NCBI RefSeq assembly: GCF_054482595.1
Contig: NZ_CM137008.1
DNA: 64,000 nt
Direction: 5' to 3' (one strand)
In this document: positions 10,642 through 18,159 of the stretch, in pieces
How the letters are laid out: each line of letters opens with the position of its first letter
Position numbering within the stretch: the stretch's first letter is position 1
Program-made: the position numbers and the translations under genes
Notes under the pieces: generated by a model
What the model was told of the DNA's origin: nothing
Seen by the model: the letters and a program-made list of their open reading frames with translations, nothing else
Database searches by the model: none

Positions 10642-10692
10642 ACTGTAGCAGTGTTGTATCTCGTATAAACAGGGAACTAAATATGCTGTTAA

Positions 10693-11574
10693 TCATGGGG
10701 CAGCATCATTAGGAGGGTATACATTGACCGATGTACTTACACGATGAAACTCTAGTATGTTGCCAGTATGGTGACCAGGGATAGCTTCAAACACCCCAAG
10801 AAATCGGTACAGTGTCCTGTTCAACTCATCACGAGAATGTGCCATAACAATTCGTTTATCCCAGCGTTCTGTGTATCCCTCATCATCCTTTATATTCCGC
10901 TCTATGATTTTGTTACCATCATCAGTCAATTCATTTCCCCAATCTGAATTTCCATATAGTTTTGGAAACCAAACCATGCATTTTCCTGATAGACCCATTG
11001 CTTCACTTATGTGAGAAGGAATGCTCCAACCGCCAGACTGATGATGTCCTTTGTTGTAACCGAAACAGTTCAAAGCATCCCGGTGGTATCTGAAGACGGC
11101 ATCTGGACCTACAGATATCCTTCCTGCCTTAAGATGAGGACGAGCTGTATATTTATTATCATAATCCCATTCTTTGAATTTTTTATCTTTAATCATTCTA
11201 TTTTTACGATTGCGTATCAACTCAATAAATTCATTGATATAACGATCGAAAATTTCAAGACTTATTTCGCTGGCGGGAATTCTTTTCTCTAAAAATCCTG
11301 TAACTTCAGTAATATCCATACGACGTTTCGCATCATCTATTTGTGATTGCTCACTGTTGTGATGCCCTTCATCAATTTCAAGATAAAGTTCCAGTTGTGG
11401 GAAAAATAAATCTGCCAAATAGATTTTTCCATTTTCTTTTCTGACACATTGCTGGCAGACAAATTCAATGTCGGGATCATTTAAAAGATGATAAATGCGA
11501 GTTACTGCATAATGTTCCCATCGTTTTTTTGAGGTTTTCGTAAGTGAACGTAGGATGTAATCAGTTTTATCCAT
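10693..11574 (-). CDS. Hypothetical protein, 293 aa, AT-rich, inside the satellite-like island
   Basis: Clean ORF; ELYLEIDEGHH and C-terminal KRIVMAH (Rx4H-like) motifs noted but no confident family assignment. Confidence 0.55.
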   Translation of the reverse strand: MDKTDYILRSLTKTSKKRWEHYAVTRIYHLLNDPDIEFVCQQCVRKENGKIYLADLFFPQLELYLEIDEGHHNSEQSQIDDAKRRMDITEVTGFLEKRIPASEISLEIFDRYINEFIELIRNRKNRMIKDKKFKEWDYDNKYTARPHLKAGRISVGPDAVFRYHRDALNCFGYNKGHHQSGGWSIPSHISEAMGLSGKCMVWFPKLYGNSDWGNELTDDGNKIIERNIKDDEGYTERWDKRIVMAHSRDELNRTLYRFLGVFEAIPGHHTGNILEFHRVSTSVNVYPPNDAAP

Positions 11575-11845
11575 TTATATGCCTTCCTTCTTTGTTCTTC
11601 ATGTAATGTGCTTTTTCTTATGGCGATAGTGTTACCTATCGCCATAAGATGCGTTAGTATTTTTTTAATCTAACTGTTTATACTGTTAACTTCGATGATT
11701 TTCTATTTTATATCATGTGGTTAAGCGGTGGTGAGTTGGTGAGGAGTGAAAAGTCGAATCTTCCCCTTTGTGATTTTTGCTCGTTCTGGATCTGCCCGGT
11801 CAGGCGATGTGGTGGGGGGGGGTAAAAAGTTTTTTTAGGTTTTAC

Positions 11846-11937
11846 TGTTCACACTGTTCACCTCTGGTTTTTTATTAATAATTTCATGGTGATACAGGGT
11901 GAAGATACGGTGAAGGGTGAACAGTGGATTGTTCACC
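11846..11937. repeat. Iteron cluster of TGTTCACC octamers in both orientations (P4 ori/crr-like alpha-binding repeats)
   Basis: Full octamers or close variants at 11846-11853, 11855-11862, 11916-11923 (GGTGAACA) and 11930-11937, plus partial GGTGAAG copies at about 11898 and 11909; the last two form a palindrome GGTGAACAgtggatTGTTCACC. Confidence 0.6.
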
Positions 11938-11989
11938 TTGTGGCAATGGCCAGAAAGGAAAAGACCGGCTGTTGCCGGTCTGAGTGAGG

Positions 11990-12565
11990 TTATGTTGCTA
12001 CGGGTTCGTCGCATTTCGGTAGCCAGTCGCCGTAGCTTTCCTCTTTCAGCGACAGATTGGTTTGTATCCCCTGCTTAGTGTGCCGCTTCTCATAATTCAG
12101 GCCGTACTCTTTCAGCATCATGGGCAGCCCCAGCCCGAACATTTTCAGGCTGAGTACGTTCCTATACCCGTTAGCCTCCATATAGGCCAGATACGCGTGA
12201 TAGAGATATTTACGATAATTACGCGGGATGATGCTGGCATTCCCCATAAACATCCCGTTGGTCTGCGGGAGCATTTCCAGATAGCCGCAAAAATCAAACG
12301 TAGGGTCAGCATCGCGCTTGATGCTGAGCGCCTCGTCGGAATTCTGCTGTGACTGGAGCAGTGCGCAGGCTGCCATCGGGTCGCTGAACTTCTGCATGAG
12401 CTGGCGCACAATCACGGCCAGCTCGCGCGCAATTTTATCCCTGAGCTGCGGGTCGCGTTCCTCCGGCGCAATTTGCTCCGGGAAGTGAATAATCACCCGG
12501 CGACGTGACACACCACCGCTGCGGTCGGTGAAGCGCATGGGGTTATTGTTCACTGCCAGAATCAC
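11990..12565 (-). pseudogene. Truncated primase/helicase (P4 alpha-like, D5/SF3 family) C-terminal remnant
   Basis: Frame stays open upstream to about 12670 without a start codon (…LKAITGGDAVSVDPKYQNPYSTHIPAVILAVNNNPMRFTDRSGGVSRRRVIIHF…); far shorter than an intact alpha (~770 aa). Confidence 0.5.
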
Positions 12566-12722
12566 CGCCGGAATGTGTGTTGAGTACGGGTTCTGGTATT
12601 TCGGGTCAACCGAGACCGCATCGCCGCCGGTGATGGCCTTAAGCCCTGCGCCGTCACCGCCGCCGCGTAAAGTACAGGGCTGCTACAGCTCGCCGTTCCG
12701 GCATTAATCAGGAGAGAGACTC

Positions 12723-13289
12723 GTGACCACTGTGACCATACAGCAGGCCTTTGAGGCCTGTCAGACGAACAAAAATACCTGGCTGAAACGTAAAGCCGAA
12801 CTGGCAGACCTTGAACGGGAATACCGTGAACAGCTCCTTGCCGGTGACGAACAAATCCCGCGCAGAATGCAGGATTTGCGCGACAATTTCGACGTGAAAA
12901 AATGGGAGATTAATCAGGCCGCCGGTCGTTATATCCGCTCACATGAGGAAGTGCAGCACATCAGCATCCGCAACCGGCTCCATGACTTTATGCAGTAGCA
13001 CGGCGCGGAGCTGGCCGCCACGCTGGCACCTGAGCTGATGGGGTATAACGAACAGCTTCCCGCAGTAAAACAGAGCGCCATGCAGCACTCGGTTGATTAT
13101 CTGCGTGAAGCCCTGTCGGTATGGCTGGCTGCAGGTGAAAAAATTAATTATTCCGCGCAGGACAGCGATATTTTAACGGCCATCGGATTCAGGCCTGATG
13201 CGGCCTCGCGGGATGATAATCGCCAGAAATTCACCCCGGCACAGAACCTGATTTACACCCGCCGACGTGCAGAACTGGCCGCACGGTAG
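12723..13289 (+). pseudogene. psu: psu-like (P4 polarity suppression protein) gene with one in-frame TAG at 12999..13001
   Basis: ORFs 12723..12998 and 13038..13289 are in the same frame separated by a single amber; N-terminus MTTVTIQQAFEACQTNKNTW resembles recalled P4 Psu; combined length 188 codons. Confidence 0.55.
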
Positions 13290-13690
13290 CACGCAAAAAA
13301 ATCCGCAAAATTCCGCTATTTTTTCCGAAAAAAGCCATGCATCCATAAGGTGCATGGTTTTTCATGCAAATCCCCGTATTTTATTTTCCTCACCGCGCCA
13401 GTACCGGCGCGGCCTGAGCCGGTTCATGCACCTGCATTAAAAGCGACCTCTTAAGCGGGCAGGCGTGGCGGGGAGAGCATTGCGCGCGGAGTGGGTGTTT
13501 TATTTTTTGTATGTCACATAAACTTAAGGTATGCAGTACGTAGCTAGTTTCACTAATACTGGGACGAAAAGAATGGTGCGTTTGTAAAAATGTATTTTAA
13601 TTTTTGGATTGTGATACAGAGTAAATTTCATTTAATTTTGTATTTTAATTGCGGTAAGCTATAACAAACTTGAAAAGGAATTATAATCAC

Positions 13691-15352
13691 ATGAGGTATG
13701 TTGAAAATATGAAAATTCTAGTAACTGCACCTTCAAGAAAAAATCACCCAAAAAATAATGTATTGTATGATTTTATATTGCAACAAGATGATTGGAATGA
13801 TTTTAGTTTTATCACTAAGTATCATTTATACATTACAACGAAACTTACTGGTCTTGATGAAATAGAGTATGCTGGGGTTGTTAAAATTATAAAAAAAGAT
13901 CAGTCTGAAGCTGATTACTACATGGTTGAAGAAGGCGAGTTTTCATATTTGAGTGACGAGTTTTGTTCTGTGGGACAATCTCTTGATTATTATGGGAGGC
14001 TCTCTGAATTGGGGAGTGAAATTTGTGAGGGGATATTGACATCATTACGCGACATTAATATGTTTGATTATGTTTCTGAGGGTTTCAAAAATGAAAGAGC
14101 TTGGGAACGTTCTATCATGAGAGACTTAAATAATGATGATGATATTTTTATTCTTCCAAAGTTTATAATAAAAAATCAGTTCTCGGCTATACCTAGTATA
14201 GACATGAAGTTTTCATTTATGTATTCAGGAATGATTAATACTCTTTCGTTTGATTTCGATTCAATACAATATGGATATTTTGAAAGTGAAAAACTACCAT
14301 GTAGAATGTCCGTAATTGTAGGCCGGAACGGTTGTGGGAAGAGTACAACATTGGCAAGACTTTCTAGGGTTGCTTATTCTTCAACTCAGGACAGAAAAAA
14401 AGAACAGATAGCCAAAATTGGTGAAATTCTTCCAGAGGGATTAGGTTTTCCGAAAATAATCAACCTTTCATACAGTGCTTTTGATAGTTTTCAAATACCC
14501 GGGTGTACTTTTAAAGAAAAGAAACAGCTAAGGCAAGACATACTTGATGGGAAAGGTAGGTATATATATTGCGGAGTCAGGGATGTTGGTGCTGAATTGG
14601 ATTATGTATTGGCTAATGTAGATGAAAACAATATGGATATAGAGTTTATTACATTAGATAGGCAAGAGAGAACCATATTAAAACCTCTTGAAGTACTTAG
14701 TGAAGAGTTTTATGGTGTCTTGATAAAAATACATAAAGATAGTGATAAGTGGAATTTGTTTAATAAAGTGATGATGAAGTTGAGAGAAGAGGTTTCATTA
14801 TCTGAAATTATTGATGAAATCTTTAAAGATGATTTTATTCTTAAATCTAAAGAATATTTTCATAGGTTGAGTACAGGGCATAAATTTGTTTTGCATTCGA
14901 TGGCGCATATTTTGTTGTATATTGAAAAAAGATGCCTTGTTTTATTTGATGAGCCTGAAACTCATTTGCACCCGCCATTGCTTGCGGTTTTAATGAGCGC
15001 TCTGAGAATTGTTTTGAACGAAGTCGATGCTTTTGCTATTGTTGCTACTCATTCACCTGTGGTAGTACAAGAAACATTAAGTAAAAATGTTAATGTTATA
15101 ACTAGAAATGGGGAGTTTACTGATTTTCAACGACCTGAAATTGAAACTTTTGGTGAGAATATTGGAGCAATAACATCATCAGTATTTTCATTAACGACTC
15201 AAATAACTGATTATCATGATGAATTAGACAAGCTAATAATAGAATATAAAAATAATAATAATCCATTAGATGACATTGAAAAATGTTTTGATACAGGTCT
15301 TAGTACACAAGCAAGGTCTTATGTAATATCTAAATTAGCGGTAAAAGGATAA
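13691..15352 (+). CDS. ABC-type (AAA_15/AAA_21-like, SMC/RecF/OLD superfamily) ATPase with ~190-aa N-terminal extension; PtuA-like candidate defence ATPase
   Basis: Walker A VGRNGCGKST, signature-like LSTGHK, Walker B LVLFDEPETHLHP, H-loop ATHSP. AAAGGAA SD before ATG 13691; alternative starts TTG 13670 and ATG 13709. Strongly AT-rich. Confidence 0.8.
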   Translation: MRYVENMKILVTAPSRKNHPKNNVLYDFILQQDDWNDFSFITKYHLYITTKLTGLDEIEYAGVVKIIKKDQSEADYYMVEEGEFSYLSDEFCSVGQSLDYYGRLSELGSEICEGILTSLRDINMFDYVSEGFKNERAWERSIMRDLNNDDDIFILPKFIIKNQFSAIPSIDMKFSFMYSGMINTLSFDFDSIQYGYFESEKLPCRMSVIVGRNGCGKSTTLARLSRVAYSSTQDRKKEQIAKIGEILPEGLGFPKIINLSYSAFDSFQIPGCTFKEKKQLRQDILDGKGRYIYCGVRDVGAELDYVLANVDENNMDIEFITLDRQERTILKPLEVLSEEFYGVLIKIHKDSDKWNLFNKVMMKLREEVSLSEIIDEIFKDDFILKSKEYFHRLSTGHKFVLHSMAHILLYIEKRCLVLFDEPETHLHPPLLAVLMSALRIVLNEVDAFAIVATHSPVVVQETLSKNVNVITRNGEFTDFQRPEIETFGENIGAITSSVFSLTTQITDYHDELDKLIIEYKNNNNPLDDIEKCFDTGLSTQARSYVISKLAVKG

Positions 15353-15357
15353 TACAT

Positions 15358-16203
15358 ATGTGGACACTACCTTTACCAGATGATGCGGATAGAATGAGCG
15401 AGTTATTAACCGCTTTAACGTATAAAAATGGAAATCCTAAGTATGCTTTAACACAAGATGAAAAGGATAAAATTGAAACTATTTATACTTTATATCACGA
15501 TCGTAAAGCAACTCCCTGTGCTGAATTTTTAGCAGAGGAAATAAGTGATGAAACCCAAAATGCTATAAAAACAGCTTATTCAGAAGTGCAAATAAATGGA
15601 CGGCTTTCAACCCTTCGCTCAAGGATTTTATTAAGTTCTAAAAAATGCCCATTATGTGGGATCGAATCATCAACCGACCTAGATCATTATCTTCCCGAAT
15701 CAATATATAAATGTCTCGCAGTATATTCAAGAAACCTGATACCGACCTGTCATAAGTGCAATAATAAAAAAAGAGCTGGTGTAGCAGAAAATGGAGTTGG
15801 ATTTATTCATGTGTATTATTTTGATGAGCCCGATGGTGTATTTTTCGTTGCCAATACTGAAATGATAGATGGTGCTTTAGTAATTGATTTTAATATCAAT
15901 ATGATCGAGGGTATGACTCGAGAGGTATATGATTCATTATGCTTTCAAAATAGAGTTGTTAACCTAAATGAAAGGTTAAAGATGGAAGCGAATGATTTTT
16001 TAGGGGGGCTCTATACTTCACTTGAAGAAACATATAATTCTGCAGGCCAAGAAGGATTAAGATTATTTCTAAAAAGAACTAGGGATGACTATACCAGACG
16101 TTATGGGCTTAATCATTGGAGAAGAGCATTGATAGATAGTCTATCCGATAATGTGGAGTTCCTTGACGCTGGTTTTATTACTGCCTTAGGAACTCCAGAG
16201 TGA
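15358..16203 (+). CDS. HNH endonuclease-fold protein, 281 aa; PtuB-like candidate defence nuclease
   Basis: HNH motif KKCPLCG…DLDHYLPES…N…CHKCNNKK; starts 5 nt after the ATPase stop with AAAGGA SD (translational coupling); ends 2 nt before the convergent integrase. Confidence 0.8.
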   Translation: MWTLPLPDDADRMSELLTALTYKNGNPKYALTQDEKDKIETIYTLYHDRKATPCAEFLAEEISDETQNAIKTAYSEVQINGRLSTLRSRILLSSKKCPLCGIESSTDLDHYLPESIYKCLAVYSRNLIPTCHKCNNKKRAGVAENGVGFIHVYYFDEPDGVFFVANTEMIDGALVIDFNINMIEGMTREVYDSLCFQNRVVNLNERLKMEANDFLGGLYTSLEETYNSAGQEGLRLFLKRTRDDYTRRYGLNHWRRALIDSLSDNVEFLDAGFITALGTPE

Positions 16204-16205
16204 GT

Positions 16206-17399
16206 TTACTGGTGGGGATGAATATGTCGTCCCCACCAATTCATCAATTCAATTCTTGCGTGTAAATATGTTGAGCGATTGTAGGCTTTTCGTACTTCAT
16301 TTCTATCTGAATGAGCAAGAGCAGCCTCAATTACATCAGCATTAAAACCGGCTTCATTCATTGCCGTACTTGCAATCGAACGTAAACCATGTGCAACCAA
16401 TTTCCCACCATAACCTATTCGCTTAAGTGCAGCATTGGCAGTTTGGCTATTCATAGGTTGTTTTGGATTATTTCTGCTGGGAAAAACATGTTCTCGATGT
16501 GCACTAATAGGTTTCATCACATCCAGAATTTCTAATGCTTGTGGTGATAAAGGAACAATGTGTTCACGCTTAGCCTTCATTCGTTCGGCGGGAATCGTCC
16601 AGAGTTTGGCATTGAGATCGATCTCTACCCACCGAGCACCAGAAGCCTCAGAAGGGCGCACTAGGGTCAGAAGCTGCCATTCAATAAGACAGCGAGTCGG
16701 AACAGACAGATTCGACATGACCAGGGAACGCATAAGCTTAGGTAATTCTTCTGGCCGTAGCGTGGGCATATTTTGCTTTTTGGGTTTCTCAAAAGCCATT
16801 CCTACACCCGAAGCCGGGTTGGCATCTATCAGACCGGTATTAACCGCATAAATCATTATTTCGTTAATACGCTGAACTAGGCGACGAACCGTCTCTAATG
16901 CGCCACGTGCTTTGATTGGCTCCAATGCTTCAACAATCGTTCTGGCCTTTATATCCTGAACGGGCATCGCACCGATTGCCGGGAACACGTCTTTATCCAA
17001 AGAACGCCAAATATCCTTTGCATAATCCTCTGTGACACTTCTGCTTTTAATCTGGAACCAGTTAGCGGCCACAGTTGAGAAAATGCTGTCTAACTCAATC
17101 TGGCGTTGTGCTGACGCTTGCTCCTGTTGCTGTTGTGGATCCATGCCTTGCGCGAGCGTGGTTAAGTGCTGGTCGCGTATCTGACGAGCTGCTGCGAGTG
17201 TAAGGGCAGGGTATGAGCCGAGACTCAAATTTGTGCGGCTGCTGCTTCCCGGTCGTTGATAACGGAAGCGTCAGAGTTTTTTACCGGAGGTTTTGACGAG
17301 TAAGAACAGGCCATCACCATCATGCAGGGTGAAGTCTTTTTCGCGGGGTTTCGCTTTGAGGATTTCGTTGTTAGTGAGGGGGCGTGTAATGCGCGCCAT
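16206..17399 (-). pseudogene. intA: P4-family tyrosine integrase (intA-like) interrupted by an in-frame TGA after codon 42
   Basis: N-terminus MARITRPLTNNEILKAKPREKDFTLHDGDGLFLLVKTSGKKL, then TGA (complement 17271..17273), then the same frame continues RFRYQRPGSSSRTNLSLGSYPALT… into the 340-aa ORF. Confidence 0.8.
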
Positions 17400-17449
17400 G
17401 TCTGGATCCCTTCCATAATTGGTACACGTTTAATGGACCACAGTATAGC

Positions 17450-17477
17450 GTGTACCTAAACGTGTACCAATTTTCTC
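17450..17477. repeat. 28-bp direct repeat, right copy (between integrase and ssrA)
   Basis: Identical to 10614..10641. Confidence 0.8.
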
Positions 17478-17513
17478 TGGATTTAGCCGGATGTTCTCGG
17501 ACAACGACAGACA

Positions 17514-17549
17514 CAAAAAAGCCCGCAGGGCTTGTGCCGTGCGGGCTTT
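17514..17549 (-). terminator. Rho-independent terminator downstream of ssrA
   Basis: Minus-strand GCCCGC…GCGGGC stem followed by TTTTTT. Confidence 0.7.
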
Positions 17550-17582
17550 CTGTACTTCACCGGACGTATCCGGATCATCATT

Positions 17583-17945
17583 TGGTGGAGCTGGCGGGAG
17601 TTGAACCCGCGTCCGAAATTCCTACGTCCTCGGTACTACATGCTTAGTCAGTCTTTACATTCGCTTGCCAGCTGCGGACGGACACGCCACTAACAAACTA
17701 GCCTGATTAAGTTTTAACGCTTCAACCCCAGGCAGGGCCTCCACGCGATCTCTTTTGGGTTTGACCTCTCTTGATCCCCGTCCTAAGAGCGGAGGCTAGG
17801 GAGAGAGGGCTCTAAGCAGGTTATTAAGCTGCTAAAGCGTAGTTTTCGTCGTTTGCGACTATTTTTTGCGGCTTTTTACGAGGCCAACCGCCCCTCGGCA
17901 TGCACCTTGGGTTTCGCAAATCCCGTCGAATCCAGAATCAGCCCC
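17583..17945 (-). ncRNA. ssrA: tmRNA (SsrA), 363 nt
   Basis: Reverse complement begins GGGGCTGATTCTGGATTCGACGGG and ends …GGTTCAACTCCCGCCAGCTCCACCA, with the tag-coding region between. Confidence 0.95.
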
Positions 17946-18159
17946 AATGTGTAAAGGTAAGTATACCAGATTTATGAGCGCCATGACCAGCCTCAATGGC
18001 GTTATCGTTAAAGATTTAGCGACCATGTAGCCTGATTTTTATTCGATTTAGCAATGGGATGGCAACATTTTCGTCGGATGTGATAGCCAATAAGATGTTC
18101 ATTCGCGCCGCCGGAGAGGGAGGCGCGGTGAGGAACTGGTCAATAATTGGAGTGCAGGT

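What the first reader, a model, noticed from the sequence alone, without database searches (positions are those of the whole stretch)
12723..13289. psu-like gene split by a single in-frame amber codon
ORFs 12723-12998 and 13038-13289 share a frame and are separated by one TAG (12999-13001); read through, the product is about 188 aa with an N-terminus resembling P4 Psu. This is either decay of the satellite late operon or an amber-suppressible gene.
Basis: partly seen in the sequence, partly recalled or inferred. Interest (0 to 1): 0.45.

Follow-up and report, generated by a model that had tools for sequence, protein, structure and literature searches.

The report
Dead psu gene in decayed satellite
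This is an ordinary pseudogene: a copy of the phage-satellite gene psu that a single C-to-T mutation (CAG to TAG) has switched off, inside a P4-like satellite remnant next to the E. coli ssrA gene, and RefSeq already marks it as a pseudogene.

Summary
Window 12723-13289 (+) is one psu homologue of 188 codons. It aligns end to end with P4 Psu (62% identity, E 2e-84) and covers Pfam PF07455 at positions 2-182 of 182. One in-frame TAG interrupts it. The TAG lies at 12996-12998, not 12999-13001.

The stop replaces CAG (Gln92). P4 and all 9 closest intact E. coli alleles carry CAG there. The TAG allele occurs in 15 of 5,426 complete E. coli genomes, and the 91-aa fragment is on 734 public contigs, so it is not a sequencing error. 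RefSeq already labels it "phage polarity suppression protein, internal stop".

The surrounding P4-like element at ssrA is dead:
- A 4.5-kb deletion (junction 12652-12658) removed the alpha N-terminus, the regulators, the promoter region, the sid-like gene and most of the delta-like gene.
- The integrase carries a TGA at codon 43.

The cos-like site and the defence cargo are intact: a Septu-like ATPase plus HNH pair, and a methyl-directed restriction endonuclease.

The 91-aa product lacks helix alpha7, which Psu needs to bind Rho. "Decay" is supported. "Amber-suppressible gene" is not. Interest is low.

The parts
12723..13289 (+). psu pseudogene: 188 sense codons, GTG start, terminal TAG at 13287-13289, interrupted at codon 92
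   Evidence: RefSeq annotates the same sequence in other strains as 'phage polarity suppression protein, internal stop'.
12996..12998 (+). Premature amber codon TAG, replacing CAG (Gln92)
   Evidence: Codon 92 is CAG in 9 of 9 intact close alleles and in P4. It is TAG in the window and in the 4 lineage members fetched. The exact 71-mer around it occurs in 15 complete genomes.
12888..12888 (+). Window-private SNP A>T (Ile56Phe) inside the pseudogene. It is the only difference from strain THO-010 across 7,651 bp.
   Evidence: The 91-aa product with Phe56 is absent from the public protein collection, whereas the Ile56 form is on 734 contigs.
12652..12707 (+). Last 56 nt of the delta-like (STY4826-family) regulator gene. 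Its left edge (12652-12658) is the junction of a 4.5-kb deletion, with 7 bp shared by both flanks.
   Evidence: blastn against the intact element L004: window 11660-12658 matches L004 192-1187, and window 12652-13487 matches L004 5688-6523.
11990..12658 (-). Remnant of the alpha primase-helicase gene, C-terminal 223 codons only, with no start
   Evidence: (85% to P4 alpha). RefSeq: 'primase-like DNA-binding domain-containing protein, incomplete, missing N-terminus'.
13462..13480 (+). cos-like site GGCGTGGCGGGGAGAGCAT, matching the 19-nt P4 cohesive end at 16 of 19 positions. The same variant is present in intact relatives.
   Evidence: 1 match, 0.02 expected. The P4 record starts GGCGAGGCGGGGAAAGCAC. 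Intact relatives carry the identical variant.
13670..16203 (+). Intact two-gene defence cargo in the psu/cos-int hotspot: a PtuA-like AAA ATPase (13670-15352) and an HNH endonuclease (15358-16203)
   Evidence: PADLOC: PDC-M01A at 1e-99 and PtuA at 1e-73 for the first protein; PDC-M01B at 3e-37 and PtuB at 2e-8 for the second. The hotspot position is as described in PMC9122126.
16206..17399 (-). Integrase pseudogene with a TGA (opal) at codon 43 (17271-17273)
   Evidence: RefSeq: 'integrase domain-containing protein, internal stop'.
17583..17945 (-). ssrA (tmRNA), the chromosomal gene next to which the element sits

Best explanation
The feature is a recently inactivated psu pseudogene inside a non-mobilisable remnant of a P4-like phage satellite integrated next to ssrA in E. 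coli.

What is shown:
- A single C-to-T transition turned Gln92 (CAG) into an amber stop.
- In the same lineage a 4.5-kb deletion removed the N-terminal three quarters of alpha, the regulatory genes, the divergent promoter region, the sid-like capsid gene and all but 56 nt of the delta-like activator gene.
- The integrase acquired a TGA.

What is inferred:
- psu has lost the promoter and activator of its late operon.
- If it is translated at all, it yields a 91-residue fragment. That fragment holds the coiled-coil hairpin of helices alpha1 and alpha2 but lacks the dimer-forming C-terminal half and helix alpha7 (residues 170-186).
- P4 Psu needs both of these to bind Rho and clamp two Rho rings, so the fragment cannot suppress Rho-dependent termination.
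- With no sid-like gene and no helper activation, a capsid-decoration role is also moot.
- The remnant probably persists because of its intact defence cargo, not because of psu.
For: - Full-length, collinear homology to P4 Psu across the stop.
- Codon 92 is CAG in P4 and in all 9 close intact E. coli alleles, and TAG only in the lineage that carries the window's structure.
- That structure is 7.65 kb at 99.9% identity or more and occurs in 15 of 5,426 complete genomes. They come from humans, poultry, pigs and water on several continents. The 91-aa product is on 734 public contigs. The stop is therefore real and inherited.
- RefSeq flags psu, int and alpha as pseudogenes in those genomes.
- The deletion was mapped against intact elements at the same ssrA site.
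- Intact alleles evolve under purifying selection, with pN/pS of 0.05-0.29. The branch to the TAG lineage has 4 synonymous changes, 0 missense changes and 1 nonsense change, so inactivation is recent.
- The only later change seen, in the window alone, is a missense Ile56Phe at a position that is Ile in P4 and in all relatives.
- No sigma-70-like promoter was found on the + strand in 11500-13800.
- Helix alpha7 and the C-terminal residues 170-190 are required for Rho binding (PMC11718236; PMC3737525).
Against: - No expression data were available, so absence of transcription and translation is inferred.
- The consensus promoter scan is crude.
- The downstream half of the gene is still unblemished. 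Pro171, Ala172, Gln173 and a basic residue at position 180 are all retained. This is expected for a young pseudogene, but it also fits continued use.
- UAG followed by C is, from general knowledge of E. coli termination and not tested here, a relatively leaky context. Near-cognate read-through would insert Gln, so traces of wild-type Psu cannot be excluded.
Confidence: 0.93

Rival explanations
1. The gene is functional and amber-suppressible. The host carries a suppressor tRNA, or read-through is efficient, so full-length Psu is made and the TAG acts as a regulatory valve.
For: - The downstream 96 codons are intact and keep the Rho-contact residues.
- CAG to TAG is exactly the change that a Gln-inserting suppressor or near-cognate tRNA-Gln would revert at the protein level (general knowledge, not tested).
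Against: - The TAG is confined to one near-identical lineage. All 9 closest intact alleles and P4 have CAG.
- The window has no suppressor tRNA, only tRNA-Met(CAT), tRNA-Glu(TTC) and tmRNA.
- TAG is used as an ordinary terminator here: by psu itself and by 2 of 38 long ORFs.
- The second lesion of the element is TGA, not TAG.
- The partner genes and promoter are deleted, so a restored Psu would have no satellite to serve.
Confidence: 0.03
2. The stop is a sequencing or assembly error in this window, and the gene is really intact.
For: None beyond the prior that single-base errors occur.
Against: - The identical 71-mer containing the TAG is in 15 independently sequenced complete genomes.
- The truncated 91-aa product is called on 734 public contigs.
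Confidence: 0.005
3. Inactivation was selected for, not neutral. The deletion stripped psu of its regulators, so stray expression of a Rho inhibitor would be toxic. The nonsense mutation was favoured while the defence cargo was kept (adaptive gene loss during domestication). Alternatively, the 91-aa fragment has acquired a function of its own.
For: - Wild-type Psu expression is growth-inhibitory or lethal in E. coli (PMC3737525; PMC11718236).
- The allele is widespread, on 734 contigs.
- The defence genes in the same remnant stay intact.
- An independent psu lesion, a 5' truncation, sits beside retained cos, hotspot and int in another lineage.
- The N-terminal hairpin carries part of the Rho interface, Arg43 and Asp49.
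Against: - No promoter-like site was found that could drive stray expression.
- One lineage is a single evolutionary event, so its frequency may simply reflect clonal expansion.
- The order of deletion and nonsense mutation cannot be resolved, because every genome has both.
- N-terminal Psu mutants lose structural integrity, and without alpha7 and dimerisation Rho rings cannot be clamped.
Confidence: 0.04

Closest known systems
Psu (polarity suppression protein) of satellite phage P4; Pfam PF07455; PDB 3RX6 and 8PEU
   Same: Same length class (188 against 190 aa) and 62% identity over the whole length. The conserved alpha7 residues Phe169, Pro171, Ala172, Gln173 and a basic residue at 180 are retained in the downstream part. 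The gene lies just upstream of the cos site, as in P4.
   Different: The reading frame is broken at codon 92 by TAG. The start is GTG instead of ATG. The sid and delta partners and the late promoter are missing.
Intact P4-like satellites at ssrA in E. coli, such as strains HKUOPY1, KMi029 and GF3-3
   Same: Same integration site. psu and the cos region are 94-97% identical. Gene order matches: alpha ... sid-like, STY4826-family regulator, psu, cos, defence hotspot, int, ssrA.
   Different: Those elements have an uninterrupted psu (CAG at codon 92), a full 777-aa alpha, the regulators and an intact integrase. Their hotspot cargo differs: a PARIS-like AAA ATPase plus DUF4435 pair, DRT3, or a hypothetical protein.
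psu pseudogenes and psu-less 'Type B' P4-like elements surveyed by de Sousa and Rocha (PMC8628076)
   Same: That survey reports psu missing as a frequent variant, with a psu pseudogene at the expected position in 8% of such cases. This locus is one such pseudogene.
   Different: This element lacks far more than one core component (sid, delta, alpA-like, epsilon-like, most of alpha, and a working int). It falls outside even their Type C definition and is a remnant, not a variant satellite.

Membership tests
Psu family (PF07455) | Significant full-length match to the family profile and to P4 Psu, collinear across the stop | tested here: met
   Pfam E 5e-88 over model positions 2-182 of 182. BLASTP E 2e-84 at 62% identity. 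PDB 3rx6 E 6e-74.
Psu family (PF07455) | Conserved Rho-contact residues of helix alpha7 (Pro171, Ala172, Gln173, Lys or Arg at 180, as listed in PMC11718236) | tested here: met
   The alignment shows KFTPAQN conserved and Arg aligned with P4 Lys180. These codons lie downstream of the premature stop.
Psu family (PF07455) | Uninterrupted reading frame giving the roughly 190-aa protein | tested here: not met
   TAG at codon 92. It is a pseudogene of the family, not a functional member.
P4-like satellite (seven core components int, psu, delta, sid, alpA, epsilon, alpha; at most two missing; PMC8628076) | Presence of the sid-delta-psu operon and the regulatory and replication genes | tested here: not met
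   The 4.5-kb deletion removes the sid-like gene, all but 56 nt of the delta-like gene, the HTH regulator, the Icd-like gene, the DUF5375 gene and the N-terminal 555 codons of alpha.
P4-like satellite (seven core components int, psu, delta, sid, alpA, epsilon, alpha; at most two missing; PMC8628076) | Functional integrase next to the attachment site | tested here: not met
   TGA at codon 43 of int. ssrA lies adjacent.
P4-like satellite (seven core components int, psu, delta, sid, alpA, epsilon, alpha; at most two missing; PMC8628076) | P2/P4-type cos site between psu and the hotspot | tested here: met
   13462-13480 matches the P4 cos end at 16 of 19 positions and is identical to the cos of intact relatives.
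Programmed stop-codon read-through or amber-suppressed gene | The in-frame stop is conserved among diverged homologues | tested here: not met
   TAG occurs only in one lineage of 99.9% identity or more. CAG is present in 9 of 9 nearest intact alleles and in P4.
Programmed stop-codon read-through or amber-suppressed gene | A cognate suppressor tRNA in the same genome | tested here: inconclusive
   None in the 64-kb window. The rest of the genome is not available to these tools.

The most novel reading that the evidence does not exclude
The nonsense mutation was positively selected. Once the deletion orphaned psu from its repressor and activator circuitry, residual expression of this Rho inhibitor was harmful, and knocking it out helped domesticate the remnant as a fixed defence island carrying the Septu-like pair and a methyl-directed restriction enzyme. 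A weaker form of the idea is that leaky UAG-C read-through supplies trace Psu that tunes Rho.
Probability: 0.05. Interest if true: 0.3.

Novelty: already known. Interest (0 to 1): 0.07.

Why it matters
It matters little in itself. It is a textbook young pseudogene, caused by one transition mutation, in a decaying mobile element, and public annotation already flags it.

Its modest value is as an example. A P4-like satellite loses mobility, regulation, capsid-remodelling and Rho-inhibition genes while its defence cargo stays intact and spreads clonally. This fits the published view of satellites as carriers of antiviral hotspots.

It also warns gene-based surveys: those that locate P4-like elements by an intact Psu protein will miss remnants like this one.

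Tried and rejected
- **Sequencing error:** rejected. The same TAG is in 15 complete genomes and on 734 contigs.
- **Two ORFs from different proteins:** rejected. Both halves align collinearly to one Psu.
- **A structured RNA or other feature overlapping the locus:** an Rfam scan of 10300-17950 found only tmRNA. Minus-strand ORFs across psu are 60 aa or shorter and unremarkable.
- **A promoter for the orphaned psu:** no + strand sigma-70-like site was found in 11500-13800, and total counts do not exceed shuffles.
- **Recurrent nonsense at the same codon in another lineage:** I followed an 83-aa Psu fragment (P0018) named by its source as from Citrobacter freundii. It is a different lesion, a 5' truncation with homology starting at window position 13018, so there is no sign of recurrence at codon 92.
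- **Both stops in the element being amber, which would have hinted at suppression:** the int stop is TGA.
- **Ordering the deletion and the TAG in time:** impossible, because every genome with one has the other.
- **The Psu crystal-structure paper (PMC3531781):** not held. Helix boundaries were taken from PMC11718236 and PMC3737525 instead.
- **A whole-genome search for suppressor tRNAs in lineage members:** not attempted. The tools read at most 50 kb per call.

Full report
**1. The observation**

Reading 12723-13292 in a single frame gives 91 residues, one stop, 96 residues and a terminal stop. The ORF list shows 12723-12998 (91 aa, GTG start) and 13038-13289 (83 aa, ATG start) in the same frame.

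ORF ends include the stop codon, so the internal amber codon is at 12996-12998 (...ATG CAG TAG CAC GGC...). Everything else in the description holds, including the 188-aa read-through length.

The ATG at 13038 is not a separate gene start. It is the conserved internal Met of the Psu motif ELMGY, and it is the first start codon the ORF finder meets after the stop.

**2. Identity**

With the stop masked, the product aligns with P4 Psu over its whole length: 117/188 identities, E 2e-84. The alignment runs straight through the junction (DFMQ-X-HGAELAA against DFMQ-Q-HGTALAA).

It matches the solved Psu structures (3rx6, 8peu and others) at E 6e-74. It covers Pfam PF07455 from position 2 to 182 of 182 at E 5e-88. 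At the DNA level the region is 73% identical to P4 psu. The two ORFs are therefore halves of one psu gene, not two genes.

**3. Nature of the stop**

Among complete E. coli genomes, 24 carry this psu allele family. I fetched all nine without the exact 71-mer. Every one has CAG (Gln) at codon 92, as does P4.

Fifteen genomes carry the exact TAG-containing 71-mer. These are the same 15 that share the window's whole 7.65-kb arrangement at 99.9-100% identity. The four I fetched have TAG and are annotated by RefSeq as "phage polarity suppression protein, internal stop".

The truncated 91-aa product is called on 734 public contigs and the 83-aa downstream ORF on 421. The stop is therefore a real, inherited C-to-T transition and not an error.

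Intact alleles show purifying selection, with pairwise pN/pS of 0.05-0.29. The branch leading to the TAG lineage carries four synonymous changes, no missense change and the nonsense change. The gene was evidently under constraint until shortly before it was inactivated.

The window differs from strain THO-010 at one base in 7,651. That base (12888, A>T) is a missense change, Ile56Phe, inside the pseudogene. The position is Ile in P4 and in all relatives. This variant is absent from the public protein collection. A single event is only weak support for relaxed constraint.

**4. Context**

The gene sits in a P4-like element next to ssrA (tmRNA at 17583-17945). Intact relatives occupy the same site in strains HKUOPY1, KMi029 and GF3-3. 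Their gene order is:
- alpha (777 aa), DUF5375, a hypothetical gene, an Icd-like gene and an HTH regulator on one strand;
- then, on the other strand, a sid-like capsid gene, an STY4826-family (delta-like) regulator and psu;
- then a variable defence hotspot, int and ssrA.

Against HKUOPY1 the window has a 4.5-kb deletion. Window 11660-12658 matches L004 192-1187, and window 12652-13487 matches L004 5688-5743 onward, with 7 bp shared at the junction. What remains is the C-terminal 223 codons of alpha (11990-12658, minus strand) and the last 56 nt of the delta-like gene (12652-12707).

The lost segment includes the divergent promoter region and the activator of the late operon. A consensus scan finds no + strand promoter-like site in 11500-13800.

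The integrase (16206-17399, minus strand) has a TGA at codon 43, where the frame reads KKL*RFRY. RefSeq flags it as having an internal stop.

Three features are intact:
- **The cos site.** 13462-13480 matches the P4 end at 16 of 19 positions, with 0.02 matches expected by chance, and is identical to the cos of intact relatives.
- **The hotspot cargo.** This is a PtuA-like AAA ATPase plus an HNH endonuclease (PADLOC PDC-M01A at 1e-99 and PtuA at 1e-73; PDC-M01B at 3e-37 and PtuB at 2e-8). It lies where Rousset et al. place the P4 defence hotspot (PMC9122126).
- **A restriction enzyme.** A methyl-directed type II restriction endonuclease of the AbaSI family lies beyond the alpha remnant (PADLOC mREase_II at 4e-122).

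**5. Mechanism**

Shown:
- One gene, one nonsense codon, the ancestral CAG, and inheritance within a single lineage.
- Loss of the operon partners and of the promoter-bearing DNA.
- A second, opal stop in int.

Inferred from published work on P4 Psu:
- Psu acts as a knotted dimer. Its C-terminal helix alpha7 (residues 170-186) inserts between neighbouring Rho C-terminal domains.
- The tip of the alpha1-alpha2 coiled coil makes further contacts with Rho.
- Dimers bridge two open Rho rings (PMC11718236).
- C-terminal residues 170-190 are required for Rho binding (PMC3737525).

A product ending at residue 91 keeps only the hairpin. It lacks alpha7 and the C-terminal half, so it should not inhibit Rho. 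With the sid-like and delta-like genes gone, no satellite capsid exists for it to decorate. The most likely state is a silent, non-functional gene.

**6. Rivals**

- **Amber suppression.** This lacks support. The stop is not conserved beyond one lineage. The window has no suppressor tRNA. TAG serves as a normal terminator for psu itself and for 2 of 38 long ORFs in the window. The element's other stop is opal. From general knowledge and not tested here, UAG followed by C is a comparatively weak terminator, and near-cognate read-through inserts Gln. Trace amounts of wild-type Psu therefore cannot be excluded if the gene is transcribed at all.
- **Selected inactivation.** Psu is toxic when expressed, so selection against an unregulated copy is conceivable. 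The data represent one evolutionary event whose timing relative to the deletion cannot be resolved.
- **Recurrence at the same codon.** A lead suggesting this, an 83-aa fragment named as Citrobacter, turned out to be a different lesion: a 5' truncation of psu beside retained cos, hotspot and int.

**7. Comparison and novelty**

The locus belongs to the Psu family by sequence but fails the requirement for an intact frame. The element fails the core-gene definition of a P4-like satellite (PMC8628076) and is a remnant. That survey already reports psu pseudogenes, at 8% of psu-less variants. RefSeq already annotates this exact allele as a pseudogene. Nothing here is new in kind.

**8. Verdict**

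The "decay" reading is supported and the "amber-suppressible" reading is not. The finding is already known and of low interest (0.07). The most novel reading not excluded is adaptive knock-out of a toxic orphan gene during domestication of a defence island, at a probability of about 0.05.

Noticed in passing
window 16206-17399 (-), stop at 17271-17273: The integrase of the same element carries an in-frame TGA at codon 43 (KKL*RFRY). RefSeq flags it as 'internal stop' in sister strains. It is an opal stop, unlike the amber stop in psu.
   Followed up: yes
window 12652-12658 (junction); 11990-12658 (-): A 4.5-kb deletion relative to intact ssrA-site satellites joins the C-terminal 223 codons of alpha to the last 56 nt of the delta-like regulator gene. 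Seven bp are shared at the breakpoint.
   Followed up: yes
window 13670-16203 (+): An intact two-gene Septu-like system (PtuA-like AAA ATPase plus HNH endonuclease; best PADLOC family PDC-M01A/B) occupies the cos-to-int hotspot. In strain APEC37 (L014 3592-5254) the ATPase is annotated as two pieces, so the cargo may also be decaying in some lineage members.
   Followed up: partly
window 10637-11659, gene 10693-11574 (-): An AbaSI-family, methyl-directed type II restriction endonuclease (PADLOC mREase_II, E 4e-122) lies in a 1,023-bp segment. The intact relative L004 has only about 92 bp there, between the ypjA side and the end of alpha. This may be a second cargo site.
   Followed up: partly
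window 11660-11774 and 11824-11939: Two neighbouring segments downstream of the alpha remnant both match the same stretch of the intact relatives (L004 about 185-300) at 76-94% identity. This suggests a local duplication or a repeated att-like sequence.
   Followed up: no
window 13462-13480 (+): A cos-like 19-mer GGCGTGGCGGGGAGAGCAT matches the P4 cohesive end at 16 of 19 positions. It is conserved exactly in intact relatives, and homology with them stops at 13487, where the variable hotspot begins.
   Followed up: yes
window 5679-10382 (+): A 1,567-aa autotransporter adhesin (RefSeq name in sister strains: YpjA/EhaD) lies next to the remnant. It is frameshifted in strain APEC37 (L014).
   Followed up: no
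L016-L019, psu fragment at 6001-6252: An independent psu remnant in another lineage, for which one source name says Citrobacter freundii. Only the last 83 codons survive a 5' truncation. It again lies beside a retained cos, an AAA_15/AAA_21 ATPase plus HNH pair and an integrase.
   Followed up: partly
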